Source: an uncultured Candidatus Saccharibacteria bacterium | GTDB lineage: Bacteria > Patescibacteriota > Minisyncoccia > Phycocordibacterales > CAIRYW01 | Direction: 5' to 3' | Length of the DNA stretch: 64,000 nt | Assembly (NCBI GenBank): GCA_964554765.1 | Contig: CAZKPS010000001.1 | Coordinates: 72,786-136,785, forward strand | Part shown: positions 22,746 to 64,000 of the stretch, piece after piece | Numbering within the stretch: position 1 is the first letter of the stretch | Layout of the letters: each line of letters starts with the position of its first letter | The notes under the pieces: model-generated | The model's input: the letters and a program-made list of their open reading frames with translations, nothing else | What the model was told of the DNA's origin: nothing | Database searches by the model: none | Translations under genes and position numbers: made by a program

Positions 22746-22904
22746 ATATATATTATTTATTACTTACCTATCTATTATCTATAACCCCAATTTAGATGCC
22801 TATAATACACAGAAATTGGAGAAATACAAAGCGAAATTGTATTTAGTATATTGTATATGGTATGTAGTATAAAATACGTAAATTTTAAATCCCCTCACCA
22901 CTCA

Positions 22905-29133: not shown

Positions 29134-29931
29134 TTATTTTTCCTCAGTTTTACCGTCCAACCTTTTCGCCTCTTTCCACGCTAGTTCAAAAAGTTTTTTG
29201 AGAGCATCAGCAATCTCTTCACTTTCTATAATAATACCAAGCTCCTCTCTCCAGGATGCAATCATCACTTTGTTATCATAAATTTCTATATCAGGAGAAA
29301 TGTCAAAAAGTTCTTTTGGTACAAGAGCGAGCTCTCGAGCCTCAAACGGATTCATCTTTTTTCGCTCAAGTGCCAACTCTGTTGCAGGAACAATACCCCG
29401 AACAAACAAACCCTTCGCCGCCCGTCTCCTGTAATAGTCAGGAAAATATCCTTTGAGAGTTTTGTGCATATCATCATAGGAAGCCATTGCCACAAAAGGT
29501 CCAGATGCAGTCAAGGTATCTTCATATACTTTTTTCATTCCCTCAATACCTTCATAAAATTTTACTTGTGGCCGAGTACCGACTTTATACATGGACTTAA
29601 GCTCGGGCAATAGTAATTGTGCATACCTATAGTCCTCTTCTTTTCGCTCAATATTGTGACGCAGAAATTTTAATATCTGTTCAGGATCCTCACATCGATA
29701 CTCTTGTTTTGGTTCTTTCCCAGAAATACTCACAAGACCCTTTTGTGCCAGGCTTGCCAAAATATCGTAGGCACCCGTTCTATTAATACCAGCCCTTTTT
29801 GCAATCTCACTTACTTTACCTTTTCCTATCCCTAAGAATGAAATGTAGAGCTCAGACTCTTTTTTGTTGAGACCCAGCTTTTGTAAAGCGTTTTGAAAAG
29901 TTCCACTCTGACCTTCTTCGTATTTTGTCAT
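29134..29931 (-). CDS. TrmB-family transcriptional regulator (close paralog of 62920..63708)
   Basis: wHTH (SEIAKRAGINRTGAYDILASLAQKGLVSISGKEPKQEYR). The C-terminal IYDNKVMIASWREELGIIIESEEIADALKKLFELAW is shared with the paralog. Confidence 0.75.
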   Translation of the reverse strand: MTKYEEGQSGTFQNALQKLGLNKKESELYISFLGIGKGKVSEIAKRAGINRTGAYDILASLAQKGLVSISGKEPKQEYRCEDPEQILKFLRHNIERKEEDYRYAQLLLPELKSMYKVGTRPQVKFYEGIEGMKKVYEDTLTASGPFVAMASYDDMHKTLKGYFPDYYRRRAAKGLFVRGIVPATELALERKKMNPFEARELALVPKELFDISPDIEIYDNKVMIASWREELGIIIESEEIADALKKLFELAWKEAKRLDGKTEEK

Positions 29932-31443: not shown

Positions 31444-32241
31444 TTATTCGTATTTCGTTCCTGTCCAACTCAATTCAAAAATCATCTTCATAAGTCCGTG
31501 AATTGTTGGATCTTCGATAATGACTCCTGTTAACTTTTCTTTACCGAGGTTTATGATCGAAACATTTTTTTCACCATAGATTGTAATCTCGGCCTTGTAG
31601 GGGAATTTCTCTGCCGGGATGAATCGTGCATTAGGCATCAATTCTTCTTTGAAATCACCGTACGATCTCTCAACAAAGGTCTTGTCTATGTTTGTATCTG
31701 GGAAAATAACTCTTGAACTAATTCCTTTCTGTTTCTTTGTCTTAATATAATTTCTAAAAAAGTCTCTCGGCACCTGTTCCTCCACCTCTTGAACATTCGC
31801 CCACGCGAGCATTTCATATGGCTTCGATACATTAATATGTGTTGCATAAATATCAAGCACACCCTCAATACCTTCATAATACGTAATCTTTGGTTTATCG
31901 GCCGCTCCCAATAACCCCTCGAGATCAGGAAGAATCCTCTGGACATTCTCAATCTCATCTTGGATGATAGACATTTTGGATTTGGCATACCGCACGAGCT
32001 TGGTTGGACTCTCGAGTTGATAGAATTGTTTATTCTTCTTTTCTATCTCATTCACTACCCCCTTTACTGACATTTGGGTGAGCAACATATAGACCGTACT
32101 TCGATTAAGTCCAGTGTATTCTGCAATCTTTGACGGATATGCTCCTCCGAGCTCAAGGAGTGCTACATATATTAAAGACTCTTTGTCAGAGAGACCTGAC
32201 TTTTGGAGCTTTTTGAGGAGATTTTCGTGTTTTATGCTCAT
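31444..32241 (-). CDS. TrmB-family transcriptional regulator
   Basis: wHTH (IYVALLELGGAYPSKIAEYTGLNRSTVYMLL) plus a C-terminal domain. Confidence 0.75.
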   Translation of the reverse strand: MSIKHENLLKKLQKSGLSDKESLIYVALLELGGAYPSKIAEYTGLNRSTVYMLLTQMSVKGVVNEIEKKNKQFYQLESPTKLVRYAKSKMSIIQDEIENVQRILPDLEGLLGAADKPKITYYEGIEGVLDIYATHINVSKPYEMLAWANVQEVEEQVPRDFFRNYIKTKKQKGISSRVIFPDTNIDKTFVERSYGDFKEELMPNARFIPAEKFPYKAEITIYGEKNVSIINLGKEKLTGVIIEDPTIHGLMKMIFELSWTGTKYE

Positions 32242-34014: not shown

Positions 34015-34134
34015 GAAAACAAAGCCAAATCGTGATATTGTATCGGTACCCCAACAGTTATCGACCCCAGAGCTAAATTTGATTACAAATTTGCTACGGG
34101 GCAAGAAAAACTTATCAACTAATTTTTCAAACTT

Positions 34135-49895: not shown

Positions 49896-50024
49896 AGAGG
49901 CTTGCCCCGTAGTAAATTTGTAATCAAATTTTGCTTTGGGGTAGAAGAGAGGGAAATTGGGCAGATACAGAGTAAGTATCATGTGAAATAGTAGTTGATA
50001 GCCAATAGTCATTAGTTTATAAAA

Positions 50025-50807: not shown

Positions 50808-51647
50808 CTATATTCCAACTTCTAGCATTACTGGGCAATGATCAGATCCCATCACTTCATTTAAAATTTCAGCTTTCTTAATTTTTTTCTCAAGTCTTTT
50901 TGATGCAAAGAAATAATCTATTCTCCATCCGACATTTCTCGCTCTCGCTCCGCCCCAAGCTGTCCACCAAGTATAATTACCTCCTTCTTTATTAAATAAT
51001 CTGAATGTATCTACAAAGCCGGCATCTAGAATATTATCCACCCCTTCTCGTTCTTCCGCAGTAAATCCGTGTTCACCTTCGTTTTCTTTTGGACGAGCGA
51101 GGTCTTGTACTGTGTGAGCAACGTTCAGATCACCGCAGAAAATAACAGGTTTTTTGACCTCAAGTTCTTTACAGTATTCAAGAAACGCCGGATCCCATTT
51201 TTTGTAGCGAAGCTCGAGGCGACTCAAATTATCTTTGGAATTAGGAGTATAAACATTTACTATATAGAATTCATCGAATTCTGCTGTAATCACGCGCCCC
51301 TCAGTATTAGGATTACCATATGAATCAGTGTCGAATTTGTATTTATGAGCGATTTCTTTTGGAAGTCCAAGGATTATTGAAATAGGCTTGATTTTAGTAA
51401 ATATTGCCACACCACTGTAGCCTTTTTTCTCTGCTGAATTCCAATATTCTTCATATTCTGAAAGATCTATCTCTGCCTGACCTTGCTGTGCTTTAGTCTC
51501 TTGAAGGCATATGATATCTGGTTTGTATTTAGCAACAGATGGAAGAAAAAGTCCTTTATTGTGGACTGCGCGAATACCGTTTACATTCCATGAGATGATT
51601 AGCATACGAATAGTATATAGTATGTGGTATATGGTATACAAACACAA
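50808..51647 (-). CDS. xth: Exodeoxyribonuclease III (likely start MLIISWNVNG at ~51605)
   Basis: WNVNGIRA, QETK and the C-terminal SDHCPV motif. Confidence 0.85.
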   Translation of the reverse strand: MCLYTIYHILYTIRMLIISWNVNGIRAVHNKGLFLPSVAKYKPDIICLQETKAQQGQAEIDLSEYEEYWNSAEKKGYSGVAIFTKIKPISIILGLPKEIAHKYKFDTDSYGNPNTEGRVITAEFDEFYIVNVYTPNSKDNLSRLELRYKKWDPAFLEYCKELEVKKPVIFCGDLNVAHTVQDLARPKENEGEHGFTAEEREGVDNILDAGFVDTFRLFNKEGGNYTWWTAWGGARARNVGWRIDYFFASKRLEKKIKKAEILNEVMGSDHCPVMLEVGI

Positions 51648-52150: not shown

Positions 52151-52177
52151 TTTCTATACTACATACAATATACAAAA

Positions 52178-52220
52178 TACTACATACTACATACTACATA
52201 CTACTTACTACTTCTTACTA
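52178..52220. repeat. Heptamer microsatellite, (ATACTAC)x4 followed by degenerate copies, immediately 3' of the xer stop
   Basis: Tandem atactac atactac atactac atactac ttactac ttcttac. Coordinates may be off by 1 nt. Confidence 0.55.
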
Positions 52221-53125
52221 TGAAATTTTTTATGCACTTCTCGAAGATGTGAGTCAGTGACGTGGGTATAGATTTGAGTAGTTGAGATATTTGCGTGTCC
52301 CAAAAGCATCTGTACAGAACGTAAGTCAGCACCATTGCGGAGCAAATCAGTCGCAAAACAGTGTCGTATCACGTGGGGAGTTACTTTTTTGGATACCCCT
52401 GCTTTGATTGCATAATATCTGATTAGTCTTTGAATTGAGCGGGGAGTCAGGGCTCCGTCTTCTTTTTTTGCTCTTTCATTGCCCACTTTTACAAAGAGAG
52501 CACCGTCGAGGTCTTTACGGAGATTCAAATATGTTTTCACCATTGATTTTGCTTCATCGGAAAGGAAAACAACACGCACCTTACCACCTTTACCTCTGAT
52601 AGAGAGCTCATCCTGACGAAGATCAATATCCCGATCAAGTGAACAAAGCTCGGACACTCGAAGTCCAGTAGAGAAGAGGAGTTCCAAAATAGCCTTACCA
52701 CGAGCCTTTTTTTCTTGATTCTCCTCATTATTTGGCGCATCAAAGATTCTCCGGAGTTCATCTGCAGAGATGAGGTCGAGTGATCTCTCGCCGGTTTTCG
52801 CAAGCTCTATATAGTCTGCCGGTAGGGTAGTAATCCCTCGTTTTGCTATGTATTTGAGAAATGCGCGGAGAGCAATGAGATAATAGTTTTGAGTTCTTTT
52901 CTTGAGAGTTTCATTGAATTTACGATTGTTGCCTGTTACCTGTCGGTTAAGCCAGAGACGATATTCACGCATTATTTCTGGAGTAATATCTTTTGGATCG
53001 GTCTTTTTAAAGAATTCGAGAAACCGAGTAAGGTAATGATCATAATTCTCAACAGTCTTGAGGCTGCGACCTTTTTCGATTTCGATGTGTTCAAGGAATT
53101 GTCTTTTGAGGGTGAGTAGATCCAT
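52208..53125 (-). CDS. Tyrosine recombinase, XerC/XerD family
   Basis: 305 aa with an N-terminal SAM-like domain and the catalytic motifs RHCFAT and LGHANISTTQIYTHV. Confidence 0.85.
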   Translation of the reverse strand: MDLLTLKRQFLEHIEIEKGRSLKTVENYDHYLTRFLEFFKKTDPKDITPEIMREYRLWLNRQVTGNNRKFNETLKKRTQNYYLIALRAFLKYIAKRGITTLPADYIELAKTGERSLDLISADELRRIFDAPNNEENQEKKARGKAILELLFSTGLRVSELCSLDRDIDLRQDELSIRGKGGKVRVVFLSDEAKSMVKTYLNLRKDLDGALFVKVGNERAKKEDGALTPRSIQRLIRYYAIKAGVSKKVTPHVIRHCFATDLLRNGADLRSVQMLLGHANISTTQIYTHVTDSHLREVHKKFHSKK

Positions 53126-59804: not shown

Positions 59805-59830
59805 ATCAAAAAGTAGAAATCAAAAATAAT

Positions 59831-59866
59831 AAATCCGCGGCACCTAAAGGTGCCGCGGATTTTTAA
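59831..59866 (+). terminator. Terminator after pnp
   Basis: 12-bp stem atccgcggcacc / ggtgccgcggat followed by TTTTAAT. Confidence 0.7.
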
Positions 59867-59867
59867 T

Positions 59868-59905
59868 ATAAAAATTAGTCTGCAAGATTTTCATCTTGCA
59901 GACTT
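59868..59905 (-). terminator. Convergent minus-strand terminator
   Basis: Hairpin gtctgcaaga-ttttca-tcttgcagac, followed on the minus strand by TAATTTTT. Confidence 0.55.
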
Positions 59906-59944
59906 GGGTTCAACAAGTATCCTGAAGTGTAAGACAACAAGAAT

Positions 59945-60592
59945 CTAAAAGGTTTCTCTTGTTTCGCTTGTATCTATGTAACCAATCACTGTTTGTGGTA
60001 TTACATTTTCATTAACACCAGAGAACCATTCTTCAGATCTAACGATTCTTGGATTGTGGAGATCCTCAAAGTCGACAACAAGAACACTTCGGCAGAGATG
60101 TGGGTAAATACGAATTTGATTCCACCCATAACCGATTTTAAACCCTCCGTGGGGCACACGATTATAGTATCTTTCACACCACCCTCTTTTCTCTTTCTCA
60201 ACAAGTTCCCATACTTGTGGACGCATAAGTGAGAGGAACACTATCCTAACATACCTCCTCATCATAAATATGTCGGATACACATTGGTGCTCAATTGACC
60301 TTGGTTTTTGAATTAAGTCACTATTTTTCTCAAAATATCCTTGTATCAGGTAATTTGAGACACTGTGTCTTGGCAGAAGTTTCCGTGCTCTCATCACAAA
60401 CTCTTCTTCTCCCATCTCCAAATACGGTGATTTTTGATCATGCCTAAACAGTTCAATTTGTGAGGGATGGTGTATAGGTAGAAGATTCAAACGAATACCC
60501 CTCCTCTTCAAGAAAGGTTCTCCGATATGTTGAAAGAGAAAACGATTTGAAAAAAACAGATTCATCATAATTATATTTGGTTCGACCAGCAA
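59945..60592 (-). CDS. Hypothetical protein
   Basis: 215-aa ORF. The true start may be internal (MNLFFSNRF). No recognisable domain. Confidence 0.45.
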   Translation of the reverse strand: MLVEPNIIMMNLFFSNRFLFQHIGEPFLKRRGIRLNLLPIHHPSQIELFRHDQKSPYLEMGEEEFVMRARKLLPRHSVSNYLIQGYFEKNSDLIQKPRSIEHQCVSDIFMMRRYVRIVFLSLMRPQVWELVEKEKRGWCERYYNRVPHGGFKIGYGWNQIRIYPHLCRSVLVVDFEDLHNPRIVRSEEWFSGVNENVIPQTVIGYIDTSETRETF

Positions 60593-60719
60593 AACTTCAT
60601 GTTATACCGGCTTCACCTCCTCCTAACATCATTATTCAATAATTTCGTCAAAAATCAATATTAAAAAATTGATTTTTTAGTATTTATAGTATAAACTGAC
60701 GAAAATAATTCGTCGTCAT

Positions 60720-61505
60720 ATGGAAAATGTATTAAAACAATTGGGTTTAAATGAAAAGGAGATTTTAGTCTATAAATCACTCTTGGAAAGAGGTGCTTCG
60801 ACATCATCTTCACTTGCAAATGTTATTGACTTGCCACGACAGACTATCTACTCAATCCTTCAAAAACTATGTGATGAAGGAGTAATTGAGAAAGGCCCGT
60901 GGAAAGGGGCACACAAATTCATTGCCGACCCAACCAATCTTTCATCAATAGTGAGATTTAGGCAGAAAAAACTTACCCAAATAGGAAATACAATTGAGGA
61001 ATTGATGCCAGAACTTCTCACAATAACAAAACTCAGAGCAAACCGAAAACCTTCGGTTCAGTATTATGATGGGGTATTTGGGTTGAAGCGTCTTTTTGAT
61101 GAGATCATTGAACAATACAAAAGAAAAGAAGATACTATGTTTCGAGGATTCGGAATTAATTATTTTGAAAATACAGACATACAAGAAATTTTAAATGATT
61201 TTGTTAGAGAGAGATATAAATATGGTATAAAAACTCACTTACTTATTGGTAAAGGGGGGAATGATTTTGGCATTACGATAGATGGATCAACAACTTTAGG
61301 AAGAGAAGTCCGTAGTATAAATATGGAAGCACAAAATGCTGGCATCTACCTAGTAGGAGATCGTATTTATTTATTTTCTTACGAGGATGATGTGGGAATT
61401 ATGATTGAACAGAAACTTATTGCACAATTATTAAAAAATATTTTCGATTTGGAGTGGGATAAGGCAAAAGAGCTTGATAAAGAAATAAGAAGATTAGAGA
61501 AGTAA
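60720..61505 (+). CDS. TrmB-family transcriptional regulator
   Basis: wHTH (ILVYKSLLERGASTSSSLANVIDLPRQTIYSILQKL). The C-terminal ...WDKAKELDKEIRRLEK is identical to 62920..63708. Confidence 0.7.
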   Translation: MENVLKQLGLNEKEILVYKSLLERGASTSSSLANVIDLPRQTIYSILQKLCDEGVIEKGPWKGAHKFIADPTNLSSIVRFRQKKLTQIGNTIEELMPELLTITKLRANRKPSVQYYDGVFGLKRLFDEIIEQYKRKEDTMFRGFGINYFENTDIQEILNDFVRERYKYGIKTHLLIGKGGNDFGITIDGSTTLGREVRSINMEAQNAGIYLVGDRIYLFSYEDDVGIMIEQKLIAQLLKNIFDLEWDKAKELDKEIRRLEK

Positions 61506-61530
61506 TAAACAGTAAGTAATAAGTAATCAA
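61456..61530 (+). repeat. ~75-nt direct repeat, copy 1 (3' end of the TrmB paralog plus 20 nt downstream)
   Basis: gggataaggcaaaagagcttgataaagaaataagaagattagagaagtaataaacagtaagtaataa, with 1 mismatch versus the copy at 63661. Confidence 0.75.
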
Positions 61531-61532
61531 GT

Positions 61533-61568
61533 GAATGCATCGTGCCCTTCGGGCGCGATGCATTTTGC
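61533..61568 (+). terminator. Terminator after the TrmB paralog
   Basis: Hairpin atgcatcgtgccc-ttcg-ggcgcgatgcat (one G-U pair) followed by TTTGC. Confidence 0.6.
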
Positions 61569-61613
61569 TATAAAAATACCCCTAGAACTTTCGTTCTGAG
61601 GGTTAAAGACACA

Positions 61614-61916
61614 CTAATCAAAAACAAAAAGTGGATGGGAAGTCGTCCAAACAAAAACCCAGATGCGCGGAGATGCCAAGGCACTAAGGTCTGAAGATAG
61701 ATTCTGAATGTTAATCAAACCTTCAGAATCCTTCAAGTGGCATCTGCAAGCAATCTCAAACTCCCCAATCTTCTGCTTTGTCCCAATAGCAAAGTAGAAA
61801 CATTCTACTCTATATCGAGAAGCTCCAAGTTGTTTGGTATGAAGAAATATTCTCTGCCATTGCCTCATCCATTTTTTGCGAACAAAACTCATCAAAAGAT
61901 AAACTAAAAATTTCAT
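61614..61916 (-). CDS. Small hypothetical protein, paralog A of a tandem pair
   Basis: 100 aa (MKFLVYLLMSF...FAIGTKQKIGEFEI). It is weakly similar to 62016..62333 (MNLIIFLIRF...SFVGHQTEHKELIE). Its coding status is uncertain. Confidence 0.3.
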   Translation of the reverse strand: MKFLVYLLMSFVRKKWMRQWQRIFLHTKQLGASRYRVECFYFAIGTKQKIGEFEIACRCHLKDSEGLINIQNLSSDLSALASPRIWVFVWTTSHPLFVFD

Positions 61917-61941
61917 AATATTTGACTAAGTTTGAATGAAC

Positions 61942-62022
61942 ATTAACCTACAAACCAACGACACTCGTCGCGGGTTTGAAAAGTTCCACTTGTTAAGCAC
62001 AAGTGGGAAAGCTTTTTACCAT
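61942..62022 (-). repeat. 81-nt conserved double-hairpin module, copy 1, ending exactly at the stop of the upstream ORF
   Basis: It is ~90% identical to 62397..62477. On the minus strand it reads taa aaagctttcc CCACTTG-tgcttaa-CAAGTGG aacttttcaaa cc CGAC-gagt-GTCG ttggtttgtagg: two small hairpins, each followed by a U-rich tract. Confidence 0.7.
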
Positions 62023-62333
62023 CCACCGCCACAAATTCTAGTAGTTCTCGGAGGAGGGTTATAAAAAGGTGATCCTATTTTGACAAAGGCATACCCCGTA
62101 CACTTAATTTTACTGAGAATATTTTTTTGCTCTTCTATTGTATAAGCAAGCCACAAAGCATGCCTCAGTTCGATGAGTTCCTTGTGTTCTGTTTGATGAC
62201 CCACGAATGAAATTGTCACATTAGTTGACCAGCATGAGACAGGGAAGTTACTCAGATACACCTCTTCTATCTTATATTTCATACCCCTGAACCAACCGGT
62301 GCAGAAGCGAATTAGGAAAATAATCAAATTCAT
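62016..62333 (-). CDS. Small hypothetical protein, paralog B of a tandem pair
   Basis: 105 aa. The stop codon and final Trp are supplied by the TTACCAT end of the 81-nt module. Its coding status is uncertain. Confidence 0.3.
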   Translation of the reverse strand: MNLIIFLIRFCTGWFRGMKYKIEEVYLSNFPVSCWSTNVTISFVGHQTEHKELIELRHALWLAYTIEEQKNILSKIKCTGYAFVKIGSPFYNPPPRTTRICGGGW

Positions 62334-62396
62334 AACAACTAAGGTCTCTCACCTCTTGCCCGAATGGTTATGCCGGGATCGCATTTATTAAAGAAC

Positions 62397-62477
62397 ATTA
62401 ACCTACAAACCAACGACACTCGTCGCGGGTTTGAAAAGTTCCACTTGTTAAGCACAAGCGGAAAAGCCAGTTACCAT
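62397..62477 (-). repeat. 81-nt conserved double-hairpin module, copy 2
   Basis: Same module as copy 1. It ends at the stop of the small membrane ORF 62471..62731, which also terminates ...W*. Confidence 0.7.
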
Positions 62478-62731
62478 TTCAACCAAAGAAAAATGACCCT
62501 AATGACCATTGCACATGTTGCCGACAAGATGAATAGAAGTGTCAATAAATAAATTACAGGGTTCCAAAGGAAGATATTAATTTCGGGAGGGAGAAAAATT
62601 GGCAACACATAAGCAAAAATCAGTTCAAAATACCGACTCTGTTCGATCCTCTCGATGATTTTATTGTTTAGGTAGACCATAACAATAAAAATAATGACAG
62701 TGGTAGTGACTATGGCATTCATAAGTATCAT
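62471..62731 (-). CDS. Small two-TM membrane protein (hypothetical)
   Basis: 86 aa, very hydrophobic. It is the first gene of the minus-strand small-ORF array. Confidence 0.35.
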   Translation of the reverse strand: MILMNAIVTTTVIIFIVMVYLNNKIIERIEQSRYFELIFAYVLPIFLPPEINIFLWNPVIYLLTLLFILSATCAMVIRVIFLWLKW

Positions 62732-62919
62732 TTTTATATATTTTGTTGTTTCAGGAACAGTCCGCTCTTACTGTTCACAGTAAAACATATAAATGATGTA
62801 TGTAAATATATGTCAACATAAATAAAATAATAGTTGTTGATAAACATAGCTTTTTTTGGAATATTTAGATTTTGTCGATGCGGATTGACACAAATAGATC
62901 TGCTTTGTATACTTAAAAT

Positions 62920-63708
62920 ATGGAAAACAAAGGGAATTTCGTTGGTGCCCTCATCAATATGGGTCTCCCAGAAAAGGAGGCTGCAGTTTATGTATCTCTC
63001 CTCGGGCTGGGACTTGCAACAGTAACCGAAATTGCCAATAAATCAGGAATCAATCGAACAACTGTCTACGATATCCTTTCTTCACTATCCCAGAAAGGAC
63101 TTGTGAGCATTTCGGGTAAAGAACCAAAGCAAGAATACAGATCTGAAAATCCTGATAAGCTACTAACATATCTCAAAAACGAACTTGAGCGAAAGGCTCA
63201 AAGTGTGAGGTATGCAGAGCTCATGCTTCCGGAACTTAAATCAATACACAAAATAGGTGAAAGACCTCGAATCAAATTTTATGAAGGTGAGGAAGGTTTG
63301 CGAGAAGTATACGAAGACACTCTCACATCAGAAGAAACTATTTTGGCATATGCCGCAGTGGATGATGTGAACAAAGGGATTGCAAATTATTTCCCCAAAT
63401 ACTATAAAAGACGCGCTGCAAAAAACATTCCTATCCGTGCTATATTTCCCGATACTCCCGTGGCAAGAGAACGATCGGACCTTGATAAAGAGGAGAGGCG
63501 GGAAAGTCTTTTGGTGCCATTTGAAAAATACAGCTTTACTCCCGAAATAAATATCTATGACAACAAAGTTATGATCGCATCGTGGAGAGAAAAGCTTGGA
63601 ATAATTATTGAAAGCGCCGAGATTGCAGATGCCATGAAAAAAATATTTGAACTCTCATGGGATAAGGCAAAAGAGCTTGATAAAGAAATAAGAAGATTAG
63701 AGAAGTAA
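62920..63708 (+). CDS. TrmB-family transcriptional regulator (close paralog of 29134..29931)
   Basis: wHTH (AAVYVSLLGLGLATVTEIANKSGINRTTVYDILSSLSQKGLVSISGKEPKQEYR). The C-terminus is identical to 60720..61505. Confidence 0.75.
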   Translation: MENKGNFVGALINMGLPEKEAAVYVSLLGLGLATVTEIANKSGINRTTVYDILSSLSQKGLVSISGKEPKQEYRSENPDKLLTYLKNELERKAQSVRYAELMLPELKSIHKIGERPRIKFYEGEEGLREVYEDTLTSEETILAYAAVDDVNKGIANYFPKYYKRRAAKNIPIRAIFPDTPVARERSDLDKEERRESLLVPFEKYSFTPEINIYDNKVMIASWREKLGIIIESAEIADAMKKIFELSWDKAKELDKEIRRLEK

Positions 63709-63736
63709 TAAATAGTAAGTAATAAAAGTGATACGA
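63661..63736 (+). repeat. ~75-nt direct repeat, copy 2
   Basis: See 61456..61530. Confidence 0.75.
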
Positions 63737-63786
63737 TTCTAAATTTGTATTTATACAACATACTATATACAATATACTACATACTA

Positions 63787-64000
63787 TGACTAATGAATTC
63801 CAAGAAGGTGATGAACTAAAACGACAATATATGGAAAAGGCTCTTCACGCTAATGAAGAGGCGACCAGTGGTGCAAAATTTACCGATCTTATTAACAAAA
63901 ACTCTACTGTCTATAAAGACCAAAATCCTCCACAACAACGAGATCGAGCCCCACTTCCCGAAAAACCGACAGTGGATGCTGATGGATACCCTATAATTCA
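63787..64000 (+). CDS. Hypothetical protein, N-terminal part (runs off the window end)
   Basis: Open frame from the ATG reading MTNEFQEGDELKRQYMEKALHANEEATSG... with no stop before the window edge. Confidence 0.3.

What the first reader, a model, noticed from the sequence alone, without database searches (positions are those of the whole stretch)
61456..63736. Two diverged TrmB paralogs share a near-identical 75-nt 3' end, and these direct repeats bracket a 2.2-kb cassette-like segment
Genes 60720..61505 and 62920..63708 are only distantly similar over most of their length. Their last 15 codons plus 20 nt of 3' UTR are identical at the DNA level, with 1 mismatch in ~75 nt. The segment between the repeats contains the minus-strand small-ORF array and the second TrmB gene. 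This is the signature of a recent duplication, insertion or gene-conversion event. The direct repeats also make the 2.2-kb segment deletable by homologous recombination. A Xer-family tyrosine recombinase is 9 kb away.
Basis: seen in the sequence. Interest (0 to 1): 0.55.

Follow-up and report, generated by a model that had tools for sequence, protein, structure and literature searches.

The report
Regulator gene tail copied between neighbours
Two neighbouring, distantly related TrmB-type regulator genes in a Patescibacteria genome carry the same 68-base 3' end because one acquired the other's tail by recombination; a close relative differs by exactly the 2.2 kb between the two copies, which is an ordinary kind of bacterial genome rearrangement.

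Summary
Window 61455-61522 and 63658-63725 are 68 nt with one mismatch (16 codons, the stop and 17 nt of UTR). The two TrmB genes are otherwise about 28% identical at the protein level.

The tail (W..AK.LD.E.R) is native to the downstream gene T2, a large Paceibacteria family. It is foreign to the upstream gene T1, a rare family whose orthologs end 3-8 residues after the shared Trp. So T1 is a chimera whose 3' end is T2-type, joined at the Trp codon.

A 94%-identical T1 on an independent metagenome contig (L002) has the same chimeric tail, followed directly by the gene that follows T2 here. That contig lacks exactly 2,203 bp, one repeat period. Whether this is a deletion or an insertion is unresolved.

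The bracketed segment is not foreign cargo. It holds conserved small genes, a conserved structured RNA motif and the core regulator T2. Relatives carry TrmB modules at this locus in different numbers and orders, bounded by related terminator hairpins.

The Xer recombinase sits in the same position in three relatives and is not implicated. No att, dif or attC features were found.

Verdict: recombination between tandem paralog modules, plus a repeat-mediated indel. This is a known kind of event and of modest interest.

The parts
59826..59908 (.). Terminator module after the PNPase gene. It has two hairpins (59826-59867 and 59877-59904) and forms the left boundary of the first TrmB module.
   Evidence: Inverted repeat I2 and terminator-like hits. 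It is homologous to the PNPase-downstream modules of L003, L004 and L010.
59945..60592 (-). x215, the divergently transcribed partner gene of T1. Function unknown and fast-evolving.
   Evidence: Weak homology to the genes in the same position in L003 (151 aa) and L004 (187 aa), and 93% identical to the start of L002. No Pfam, PHROG or NCBIfam hit.
60720..61505 (+). T1, a TrmB-family regulator of a rare lineage-specific family. It is a chimera: T1 body up to Trp246, then a T2-type C-terminal tail.
   Evidence: Pfam TrmB; only 19 homologs. Orthologs at 70-83% identity end WERSKK, WEKAEKN or WQRSE, whereas this gene and P0001 carry the T2 tail.
61455..61522 (+). Repeat copy 1 (t): the last 16 codons of T1, the stop codon and 17 nt of UTR.
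   Evidence: 67 of 68 nt identical to 63658-63725. Homology to the T1 orthologs in L003, L004 and L005 stops at 61459.
61521..61602 (.). Terminator module h (hairpin 61534-61564 followed by TTTT) plus a second hairpin (about 61578-61602). It lies between T1 and the small genes.
   Evidence: Inverted repeat I12. It is 93% identical over 46 nt to the hairpin directly downstream of PNPase in L006, and resembles the hairpin after T2 in L004.
61614..61916 (-). w100, a small conserved protein gene of unknown function.
   Evidence: 65% aa identity to L010 9034-9336. Differences by codon position are 22/16/53, with 31 synonymous codon changes.
61930..62016 (-). D2a, one copy of a conserved two-hairpin RNA motif that starts right after the w105 stop codon.
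   Evidence: 98.6% identical to L010 and 90% to L006. Covariance-model hits and covariation; fold z-score -4.4.
62016..62333 (-). w105, a small conserved protein gene of unknown function.
   Evidence: 43% aa identity to L010 9439-9777. Differences by codon position are 38/34/70.
62385..62471 (-). D2b, the second copy of the RNA motif, starting right after the w86 stop codon.
   Evidence: 97% identical to D2a over 75 nt.
62471..62731 (-). w86, a small hydrophobic ORF transcribed divergently from T2.
   Evidence: ORF list. Its 5' part (N-terminal 69 residues) lies on the independent contig L001. No homolog was found elsewhere, so its coding status is not verified.
62920..63708 (+). T2, a TrmB-family regulator of a large conserved Paceibacteria family. 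It is the native owner of the tail.
   Evidence: 2,710 homologs. The C-terminal motif ELxWxxAKxLDxExR is seen across the 119 family members examined; 88 fit a strict form of it. An 11/12 sigma-70-like promoter lies at 62885-62913.
63658..63725 (+). Repeat copy 2 (t): the last 16 codons of T2, the stop codon and 17 nt of UTR.
   Evidence: Homology to the T2 ortholog in L004 runs into the tract, to 63692. L001 independently confirms the T2-t-B junction at 99.9% identity.
63726..64000 (+). The flank upstream of gene B, containing (ATACNNN)n heptad repeats at 63753-63784, and the start of gene B (ATG at 63787). In L002 this flank follows T1's tail directly.
   Evidence: Window 63637-64000 matches L002 1010-1375 at 83%; the flank next to the repeat is about 94% identical. 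Heptad repeats.

Best explanation
The interval between the PNPase gene and gene B, in a Patescibacteria (Paceibacteria-type) genome, holds tandem 'TrmB modules'. Each module has minus-strand partner gene(s), a divergent promoter and a TrmB gene. Modules are separated by related terminator hairpins.

In this genome the first module carries the rare paralog T1 and the second carries the core paralog T2. Recombination between modules joined the T1 body, at the conserved Trp codon (TGGGA is shared), to a T2-type 3' end. This made a chimeric T1 that bears T2's conserved C-terminal helix. It also left two 68-bp direct repeats 2,203 bp apart.

Ordinary homologous recombination between these repeats can do two things. 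It can homogenise them by gene conversion. It can also loop out, or re-insert, the intervening [terminator - w100 - D2 - w105 - D2 - w86 - T2 body] unit. A close relative (L002) differs from this genome by exactly that unit.

Shown: the repeat; that the tail is T2-native and T1-foreign; the junction at the Trp codon; the exact one-period difference in L002; that the bracketed genes are conserved; the variable module order in relatives.

Inferred: the recombination mechanism, its homology-dependent (RecA-type) nature, and the direction of the L002/window difference. I put roughly 55% on insertion or module permutation in the window lineage and 40% on deletion in L002.
For: 1. Repeat and sharp boundary.

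2. Polarity. T1 orthologs at 70-83% identity, and deeper T1-family members, end 3-8 residues after the Trp; five of the six deeper members (P0007-P0010, P0015) fall in that range and P0011 ends 11 residues after it. The 119 further T2-family proteins examined carry the tail motif; 88 fit a strict form of it. T2 orthologs in L004, L006, L009 and L010 also have the tail.

3. No nucleotide-level constraint. The L004 and L006 T2 tails differ from the window's at several synonymous sites and diverge completely after about codon 12.

4. L002 equals the window minus 2,203 bp. Window 60425-61522 matches L002 1-1098 (92.8%), and window 63637-64000 matches L002 1010-1375. L002 then continues B-DksA-ComM-LysM.

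5. Concerted evolution. Both window copies share the derived codon AAG (Lys), where L002, L004, L006, L009 and L010 have Arg (AGA or AGG). The window copies differ from each other at 1 of 68 positions, against 5 of 68 for each versus L002.

6. Recurrence. The T2-type tail occurs in {window, P0001} and in the basal P0005, but not in the lineages branching between them.

7. Modular locus. Arrangements are L003/L085 PNP-x-T1-B; L004 PNP-rSAM-T2-h-x-T1-B; L006 PNP-h-small ORFs-T2-B; L010 PNP-w100-D2-w105-T2-T2'-B. Repeated terminator modules sit at the module boundaries.

8. The hairpin after the window's T1 tail is the type that follows T2 in L004 and PNPase in L006.
Against: - No second genome with the same T1-then-T2 arrangement was found, so concerted evolution could not be tested directly.
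- The founding event cannot be canonical gene conversion. There is no homology to the right of 61522 between the two contexts, and only about 5 nt of exact identity plus roughly 50% similarity on the left.
- The 1-versus-5 difference count is not statistically significant on 68 nt.
- L002 is a short-read metagenome contig. An assembler could have skipped the loop between two near-identical 68-nt repeats, so the 'empty' state may not be real.
- The direction of change is unresolved. T1-B adjacency in L002, L003, L004, L005, L085 and L086 favours insertion in the window lineage. T2-B adjacency in L006 favours deletion in L002.
Confidence: 0.78

Rival explanations
1. The 2.2-kb segment is a small mobile cassette. 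It integrates site-specifically at the 68-nt sequence acting as an att site, using the nearby Xer-family tyrosine recombinase in trans, in the manner of an IMEX or a pdif module.
For: Direct repeats flank the segment, and a relative has an exact 'empty site'. A Xer-type recombinase lies 8.3 kb upstream. The T2-native terminator context follows T1 and the T1-native B flank follows T2, as expected from integration of a circle at the tail.
Against: No recombinase lies inside the segment. The Xer gene sits at the same place, next to the Exo_endo_phos gene, in L003, L004 and L085, which have other arrangements. The repeat contains no dyad-symmetric, dif-like core. The repeat sequence evolves at the ordinary rate between species. 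The cargo is a core family gene plus conserved neighbours, with the same GC content as its surroundings. A circle could integrate equally well by homologous recombination.
Confidence: 0.07
2. The identity is kept by selection on a functional nucleic-acid element that overlaps both 3' ends, such as an sRNA target, an operator or an antisense RNA, rather than by recombination.
For: The tail encodes a motif that is strongly conserved in the T2 family. A T2-type tail has been fixed on T1 in two lineages, which hints at selective value at the protein level.
Against: Selection on the peptide does not explain zero synonymous differences plus 16 of 17 identical UTR bases. Orthologous T2 tails differ at synonymous sites and in the UTR. 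No Rfam match or notable structure lies in the tract.
Confidence: 0.05
3. This is an assembly artefact. Either the duplication in the window, or the absence of the segment in L002, was produced by the assembler.
For: All the sequences are metagenome-derived. A 55-nt exact repeat exceeds common k-mer sizes, so a contig can jump from T1 through the repeat to B. A later database look-up found the window's exact T1 protein in NCBI and ENA records but not in Logan.
Against: For the window: T1 body-to-tail and tail-to-hairpin share no k-mer-sized identity with other sequence that could cause a false join. P0001/L002 independently shows the same chimeric T1, and L001 independently shows T2-tail-B. 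The two copies also differ at one base. For L002 the artefact cannot be excluded.
Confidence: 0.05

Closest known systems
Segmental non-allelic gene conversion and concerted evolution between bacterial paralogs (for example tufA/tufB, from general knowledge; repeat-associated conversion in M. tuberculosis, PMC12046097; theory in PMC3924837)
   Same: There is a short tract of near-identity with sharp edges inside otherwise diverged paralogs. The paralogs are more alike within this genome than either tract is to its counterpart in a relative. The donor can be identified by phylogeny.
   Different: The paralogs are only about 28% identical, so the founding event had almost no flanking homology and looks like a fusion at a conserved codon. 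The tract includes the stop codon and UTR, and it changes the length of the recipient protein.
Unequal crossing-over, deletion or duplication between short direct repeats in tandem gene arrays
   Same: Two direct repeats bracket a unit, and a relative differs by exactly one period. Related arrays vary in copy number and order.
   Different: The repeats are only 68 bp. The units are non-identical modules (T1 versus T2) rather than copies of one gene.
Genomic islands and prophages that integrate into the 3' end of a gene and restore it with their own copy (attL/attR direct repeats)
   Same: There are direct repeats at a gene's 3' end, an empty site in a relative, and a 3' end of foreign origin on the upstream gene.
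   Different: There is no integrase in the segment and no att-type core. The 'cargo' is conserved local genes, and the downstream repeat is the end of a complete native gene.
Xer-dependent modules (IMEX elements, Acinetobacter pdif modules) and integron cassettes
   Same: A small module without its own recombinase lies near a tyrosine recombinase gene and is bounded by repeats.
   Different: No 28-bp dif-like dyad and no attC-type single imperfect hairpin were found. The recombinase scores as XerC/D/A rather than IntI, and it sits in the same place in relatives with other arrangements (L003, L004, L085).
Domain movement (DoMo) in Helicobacter pylori restriction-modification specificity genes (PMC3077401, abstract only)
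   Same: A defined coding segment is moved between homologous positions of related genes, presumably by recombination.
   Different: Here a C-terminal tail is copied between two different regulator paralogs, not moved between positions within one gene.

Membership tests
Non-allelic gene conversion / concerted evolution between paralogs | The tract is more similar between paralogs within the genome than between orthologs across genomes. | tested here: met
   67 of 68 identical within the window. By comparison, 63 of 68 match L002's T1 tail, and only the first 32-36 nt align with the L006 and L004 T2 tails. Both window copies share the derived AAG codon.
Non-allelic gene conversion / concerted evolution between paralogs | Sharp tract boundaries within diverged flanks, and a donor identifiable by phylogeny. 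| tested here: met
   Identity rises from about 50% to 100% at the Trp codon. The tail is native to the T2 family and absent from T1 orthologs.
Non-allelic gene conversion / concerted evolution between paralogs | Homology on both sides of the converted tract (the canonical mechanism). | tested here: not met
   To the right of 61522 and 63725 the sequences are unrelated: a terminator hairpin versus the B flank. The founding event was therefore a fusion or illegitimate join. Only later exchange inside the 68 nt can be canonical.
Repeat-mediated deletion or insertion (unequal homologous recombination) | A related genome differs by exactly one repeat period and retains a single repeat copy at the junction. 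| tested here: met
   L002 has the T1 body, one tail copy and then the B flank, with 2,203 bp absent. Caveat: it is a short-read metagenome contig.
Site-specific integrative element (island or prophage type) | An integrase or recombinase encoded within the element. | tested here: not met
   The ORFs in 61523-63657 are w100, w105, w86 and T2. None has a recombinase domain.
Site-specific integrative element (island or prophage type) | Foreign composition or a non-syntenic cargo. | tested here: not met
   GC content is 0.35-0.38, like the neighbouring sequence. w100, w105 and D2 are conserved upstream of T2 in L010, D2 also in L006, and T2-B adjacency is seen in L006.
Xer/dif-dependent module (IMEX, pdif) | A dif-like site: two roughly 11-bp inverted arms around a 6-8 bp spacer, at the module boundaries. 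| tested here: not met
   No inverted repeat lies within or overlaps the 68-nt tract. The only nearby dyads are the terminator hairpins. The dif sequence of this phylum is not known to me, so a very degenerate site cannot be excluded.
Xer/dif-dependent module (IMEX, pdif) | The recombinase is associated with presence of the module. | tested here: not met
   The Xer homolog (XerC 240 bits, XerD 234, XerA 231; the integron integrase model scores only 132 against a cutoff of 265) occupies the same position in L003, L004 and L085, which lack this arrangement.
Integron gene cassette array | An IntI integrase, and attC sites (a single imperfect hairpin with R''/R' GTTRRRY cores) after each cassette ORF. 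| tested here: not met
   There is no IntI. The repeated element after w105 and w86 (D2) folds into two separate hairpins, with covariation consistent with a minus-strand RNA, which is not an attC architecture.
TrmB family transcriptional regulators (both genes) | An N-terminal TrmB-type winged helix-turn-helix domain. | tested here: met
   PF01978 hits at E = 5.6e-14 (T1) and 6.8e-17 (T2), both above the cutoff. The sugar-sensing TrmB equivalog models score far below their cutoffs, so no ligand or function is inferred.

The most novel reading that the evidence does not exclude
The PNPase-B interval of these Patescibacteria may be a dedicated 'regulator cassette array'. In it, TrmB-plus-partner modules would be shuffled, duplicated and swapped between slots through two standard joints: the terminator-hairpin module on the left, and the conserved Trp codon or C-terminal tail on the right. 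Repeated capture of T2's C-terminal helix by T1 (two lineages) would be adaptive, for example by letting T1 pair with T2 or with T2's partner. The repeats would then be functional recombination joints, not accidents.
Probability: 0.15. Interest if true: 0.55.

Novelty: new member of a known kind. Interest (0 to 1): 0.3.

Why it matters
This is a clean, base-resolved example of homologous and illegitimate recombination reshaping a regulatory locus in an uncultivated, reduced-genome Patescibacteria lineage. It includes a chimeric regulator, a one-period presence/absence difference and module reordering among relatives.

It also corrects the intuitive reading. The bracketed segment is the conserved part, and the upstream gene is the one that was altered.

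In practice it warns that this locus is prone to assembly collapse. It also shows that T1 annotations with a 'long' C-terminus are chimeras.

The by-products may be of more lasting interest than the repeat itself. These are a conserved two-hairpin RNA motif absent from Rfam, and the ATAC heptad leader repeats.

Tried and rejected
- Exact-protein look-up of T1 found no contig. For T2 it returned only a 1.3-kb contig.
The tail pattern should have matched L002's JGI contig, so that collection evidently lacks the sample and the null results are uninformative.
- A word-based homolog search with w100 found nothing, apparently because gene callers did not call it. Its coding status was instead shown by codon-position bias against L010.
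- Rfam at permissive thresholds gave only chance hits in 61400-63000.
- PHROGs, Pfam and NCBIfam gave nothing for x215, w100, w105, w86 or B.
- Integron/attC reading of D2: rejected on its fold and on the recombinase type.
- dif-like core in the repeat: none found.
- I tried to reconstruct a unique history: alpha/beta/gamma/delta arrangements, circle excision at the tails with re-integration at the terminator modules, and unequal sister exchange. Several paths fit and none is uniquely supported, because the partner genes upstream of T2 also differ among relatives (rSAM in L004 and L088, small ORFs in the window, L006 and L010). The locus is mosaic.
- I looked for a remnant of T1's native short tail downstream of the T2 tail. 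The A-rich similarity is too weak to call.
- The literature search for TrmB in Patescibacteria returned no papers.


Full report
**Observation.** The two TrmB-family genes are T1 (60720-61505) and T2 (62920-63708). Both hit Pfam PF01978. They are 28% identical as proteins. Codon-aligned nucleotide identity is 18-53% in 20-codon bins until the last bins. From the Trp codon at 61455 / 63658 the two sequences are identical for 55 nt, differ at one base (61510 C / 63713 T), and are identical for 12 nt more. That makes 68 nt at a spacing of 2,203 nt, covering 16 codons (WDKAKELDKEIRRLEK), the stop codon and 17 nt of UTR. In the whole 64-kb window only four direct-repeat families of 35 nt or more exist. 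The others are a second repeat inside the same segment (D2), a tRNA-Gly pair and an intragenic repeat.

**Whose tail is it?** T2 belongs to a large, well-conserved family in Patescibacteria/Paceibacteria, with 2,710 hits. The 119 further members examined end with the motif ELxWxxAKxLDxExR; 88 fit a strict form of it. The T2 orthologs in L004, L006, L009 and L010 have this tail too.

T1 belongs to a rare family of 19 hits. Its orthologs at 70-83% identity end WERSKK, WEKAEKN or WQRSE. Deeper family members mostly end 3-8 residues after the Trp. Nucleotide homology of the T1 orthologs in L003, L004 and L005 to the window stops at 61459, the start of the repeat. Homology of L004's T2 runs into the repeat, to 63692. 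So the tail is native to T2, and T1 is a chimera joined at the conserved Trp codon. TGGGA is the only exact identity shared there.

The tract is not under nucleotide-level constraint. The L004 and L006 T2 tails differ from the window's at several synonymous sites, and they diverge completely after about codon 12 and in the UTR. Identity at synonymous and UTR positions within this genome therefore reflects recombination, not selection.

**Relatives.** The closest T1 (P0001, 94% protein identity, about 92% nt) lies on JGI contig L002. It carries the same chimeric tail. Window 60425-61522 aligns to L002 1-1098, and window 63637-64000 aligns to L002 1010-1375. L002 is therefore the window minus exactly one repeat period. 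T1's tail is followed at once by the flank and gene (B) that follow T2 here, then by DksA-type, ComM-type and LysM genes as in other relatives. The caveat is that a short-read assembler could skip a loop between 68-nt repeats.

Seventy-nine genome loci around T2 homologs, plus look-ups of T1 homologs, show that the close clade shares S15-NYN-PNPase-[variable]-B-DksA-ComM-LysM-UvrD. The variable part differs between loci:
- L003 and L085: x(-)-T1(short tail).
- L086: T1(short tail) followed by B; an x-like sequence lies upstream, but the short contig does not reach PNPase.
- L004: rSAM(-)-T2-hairpin-x(-)-T1(short tail).
- L006: hairpin-small ORFs(-)+D2-T2.
- L010: w100(-)-D2-w105(-)-T2-small ORFs(-)-T2'.
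- Window: x(-)-T1(T2 tail)-hairpin-w100(-)-D2-w105(-)-D2-w86(-)-T2.

Modules are separated by related terminator hairpins. L004 has two copies of one hairpin, L010 has three copies of a terminator module, and the window's hairpin after T1 is 93% identical to the one after PNPase in L006. Other Paceibacteria carry up to six TrmB paralogs in one locus; in L049 the first five lie about 2.1-2.4 kb apart.

**What the bracketed segment is.** It is not foreign cargo. w100 and w105 are real genes. Against L010 they are 65% and 43% identical as proteins, and their differences fall mostly at third codon positions (22/16/53 and 38/34/70). T2 is the core regulator, with an 11/12 sigma-70-like promoter. 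GC content matches the surroundings. There is no recombinase in the segment and no phage or defence family hit.

The Xer-family gene at 52208-53125 scores as XerC/XerD/XerA, at 240, 234 and 231 bits. The integron-integrase model scores only 132 against a cutoff of 265. The gene lies in the same position, beside an Exo_endo_phos gene, in L003, L004 and L085, which have other arrangements. The 68-nt tract contains no dyad symmetry. I therefore give site-specific, Xer/dif and integron readings low weight.

**History and mechanism.** Three points are reasonably firm.

1. The chimeric T1 predates the split from L002. Both have the same junction, and L002's tail differs from the window's at 5 of 68 positions, in line with the roughly 8% divergence of the T1 body.
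2. The window's two copies differ at only 1 of 68 positions. Both share a derived AAG (Lys) codon where L002, L004, L006, L009 and L010 have Arg. This suggests exchange between the copies after that split, although the counts are too small for significance.
3. A diverged T2-type tail (WDRAKELDRELRKDIK) sits on the basal T1 homolog P0005. The lineages branching between it and the window have short tails, so the tail was captured at least twice.

The founding event was not canonical conversion, because there is no homology to the right of the tract. It looks like a fusion between modules at the conserved codon. The hairpin that follows T1's tail is of the type that follows T2 in L004, and terminator-type hairpins also follow T2 in L087 and L088.

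Relative to L004, the window's T1 and T2 bodies appear to have exchanged slots while the 3' contexts (tail-hairpin, and tail-B) stayed in place. One path that reproduces this is excision of a module as a circle by tail-by-tail recombination, followed by re-integration by recombination between terminator modules. Duplication-then-deletion paths fit equally well.

The direction of the window/L002 difference is unresolved. T1-B adjacency in every other T1 locus (L002, L003, L004, L005, L085, L086) favours insertion or permutation in the window lineage. T2-B adjacency in L006 favours deletion in L002.

**Comparison with known systems.** The feature behaves like segmental non-allelic gene conversion, or concerted evolution, combined with repeat-mediated indel formation in a tandem array. 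It meets the defining tests for those. The exception is two-sided homology for the founding event. It fails the tests for integrative islands, Xer/dif modules and integron cassettes (see the membership table). General background on such repeat-associated changes is in PMC12046097 and PMC3924837. PMC3077401 describes a loosely analogous movement of coding segments. I used only the abstracts of these papers.

**Novelty and score.** This is a new member of a known kind. A specialist would not be surprised, and no long-standing question becomes testable, so I score interest at about 0.3. The most novel reading not excluded is that the terminator and tail joints make this locus a regulator-cassette shuffling array, and that capture of the tail is adaptive. 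I give that roughly 15%.

**By-products.**

1. *D2 (61930-62016 and 62385-62471, minus strand).* This is a two-hairpin element that starts right at the stop codon of the upstream small gene. It is 98.6% identical in L010 and 90% in L006, where PNPase and T2 are only 71-81% identical at the nucleotide level. All single substitutions in its stems give G-U pairs on the minus strand only. Covariance models found three diverged members (L024, L077, L035). In these, 16 of 24 pairs show double compensatory changes, 98.8% of cells are paired, and 0 of 500 shuffles reach the observed values. Because the alignment is fitted to the model, this support is provisional. There is no Rfam match.

2. *(ATACNNN)n heptad repeats.* These occur immediately upstream of the B start codon and at three other sites. 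There are 10 matches against 0 expected. The same periodicity is seen upstream of B in L002, L003 and L085, and over three units in L004.

Noticed in passing
window 61930-62016 (-) and 62385-62471 (-); also L010:9351-9437(-), L006:9380-9466(-), L024:8752-8851(-), L077:5052-5133(+), L035:245-344(+): A conserved two-hairpin RNA-like motif ('D2') of about 85 nt. In the window, L006, L010 and L077 it begins right at the stop codon of the upstream gene, in intergenic spacers between same-strand genes. It is 90-99% identical between genomes whose flanking genes are only 54-81% identical at the nucleotide level. Stem substitutions fit a minus-strand RNA (G-U pairs), and three diverged members show compensatory changes in 16 of 24 pairs. 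There is no Rfam family or tRNA hit. It is sporadic: 7 solid hits in 1.43 Mb of T2 neighbourhoods. Its function is unknown; it could be an intercistronic processing, termination or stability element..
   Followed up: partly
window 63753-63784 (+), 52156-52208 (+), 51613-51637 (-), 22839-22870 (-); same periodicity upstream of gene B in L002, L003, L085 and (three units) L004: Arrays of 4-8 heptad repeats, (ATACNNN)n. They lie directly upstream of the B start codon and, by length comparison with its L003 ortholog, probably just upstream of the true start of the Exo_endo_phos gene. A further array abuts the 3' end of the Xer gene. There are 10 matches against 0 expected by chance. They may be a leader, promoter or operator feature. 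L049 has an analogous 8-nt repeat (GCTTACAT)n next to its TrmB paralogs.
   Followed up: no
L049:800-10800, L010:10000-12300, L038, L024, L060 (loci around T2 homologs); window 29134-29931 (-) and 31444-32241 (-): TrmB paralogs often occur in tandem arrays, up to six per locus; in L049 five lie about 2.1-2.4 kb apart. Small divergently transcribed ORFs lie between the tandem copies in L010 and the window. In L049 the 3' parts of adjacent paralogs are more alike (83% over 263 nt) than the 5' parts (about 70%), hinting that 3'-end homogenisation is general. The window itself has two further 265-aa ORFs near 29-32 kb; the one at 29134-29931 aligns with T2 at 64% nucleotide identity, the other was not checked.
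   Followed up: partly
L003:9198-9340 vs L004:6814-6955 and L004:9238-9272: L003 (PNP-x-T1-B) and L004 (PNP-rSAM-T2-hairpin-x-T1-B) are 96% identical through the PNPase terminator module. L004 has a second, 89%-identical copy of the hairpin after T2. L003 may therefore derive from an L004-like state by deletion between terminator-module repeats. That would be a second repeat-mediated indel at the same locus.
   Followed up: partly
window 34061-34105 and 49901-49945: A 45-nt inverted repeat, 91% complementary, with arms 15.8 kb apart. Each arm contains an internal palindrome (AAATTTGATTACAAATTT). It was not examined.
   Followed up: no
L001 (Logan SRR14234074 contig, = window 62523-63813): An independent, 99.9%-identical contig runs uninterrupted from T2 through the 68-nt repeat into the B flank. 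The exact T1 protein is recorded only from NCBI and ENA, not Logan. In a k=31 graph (as I recall Logan uses) a 55-nt shared stretch should break the contig if T1's copy were present at similar coverage. That population may therefore lack the chimeric T1, or coverage was simply too low. This could not be tested.
   Followed up: no
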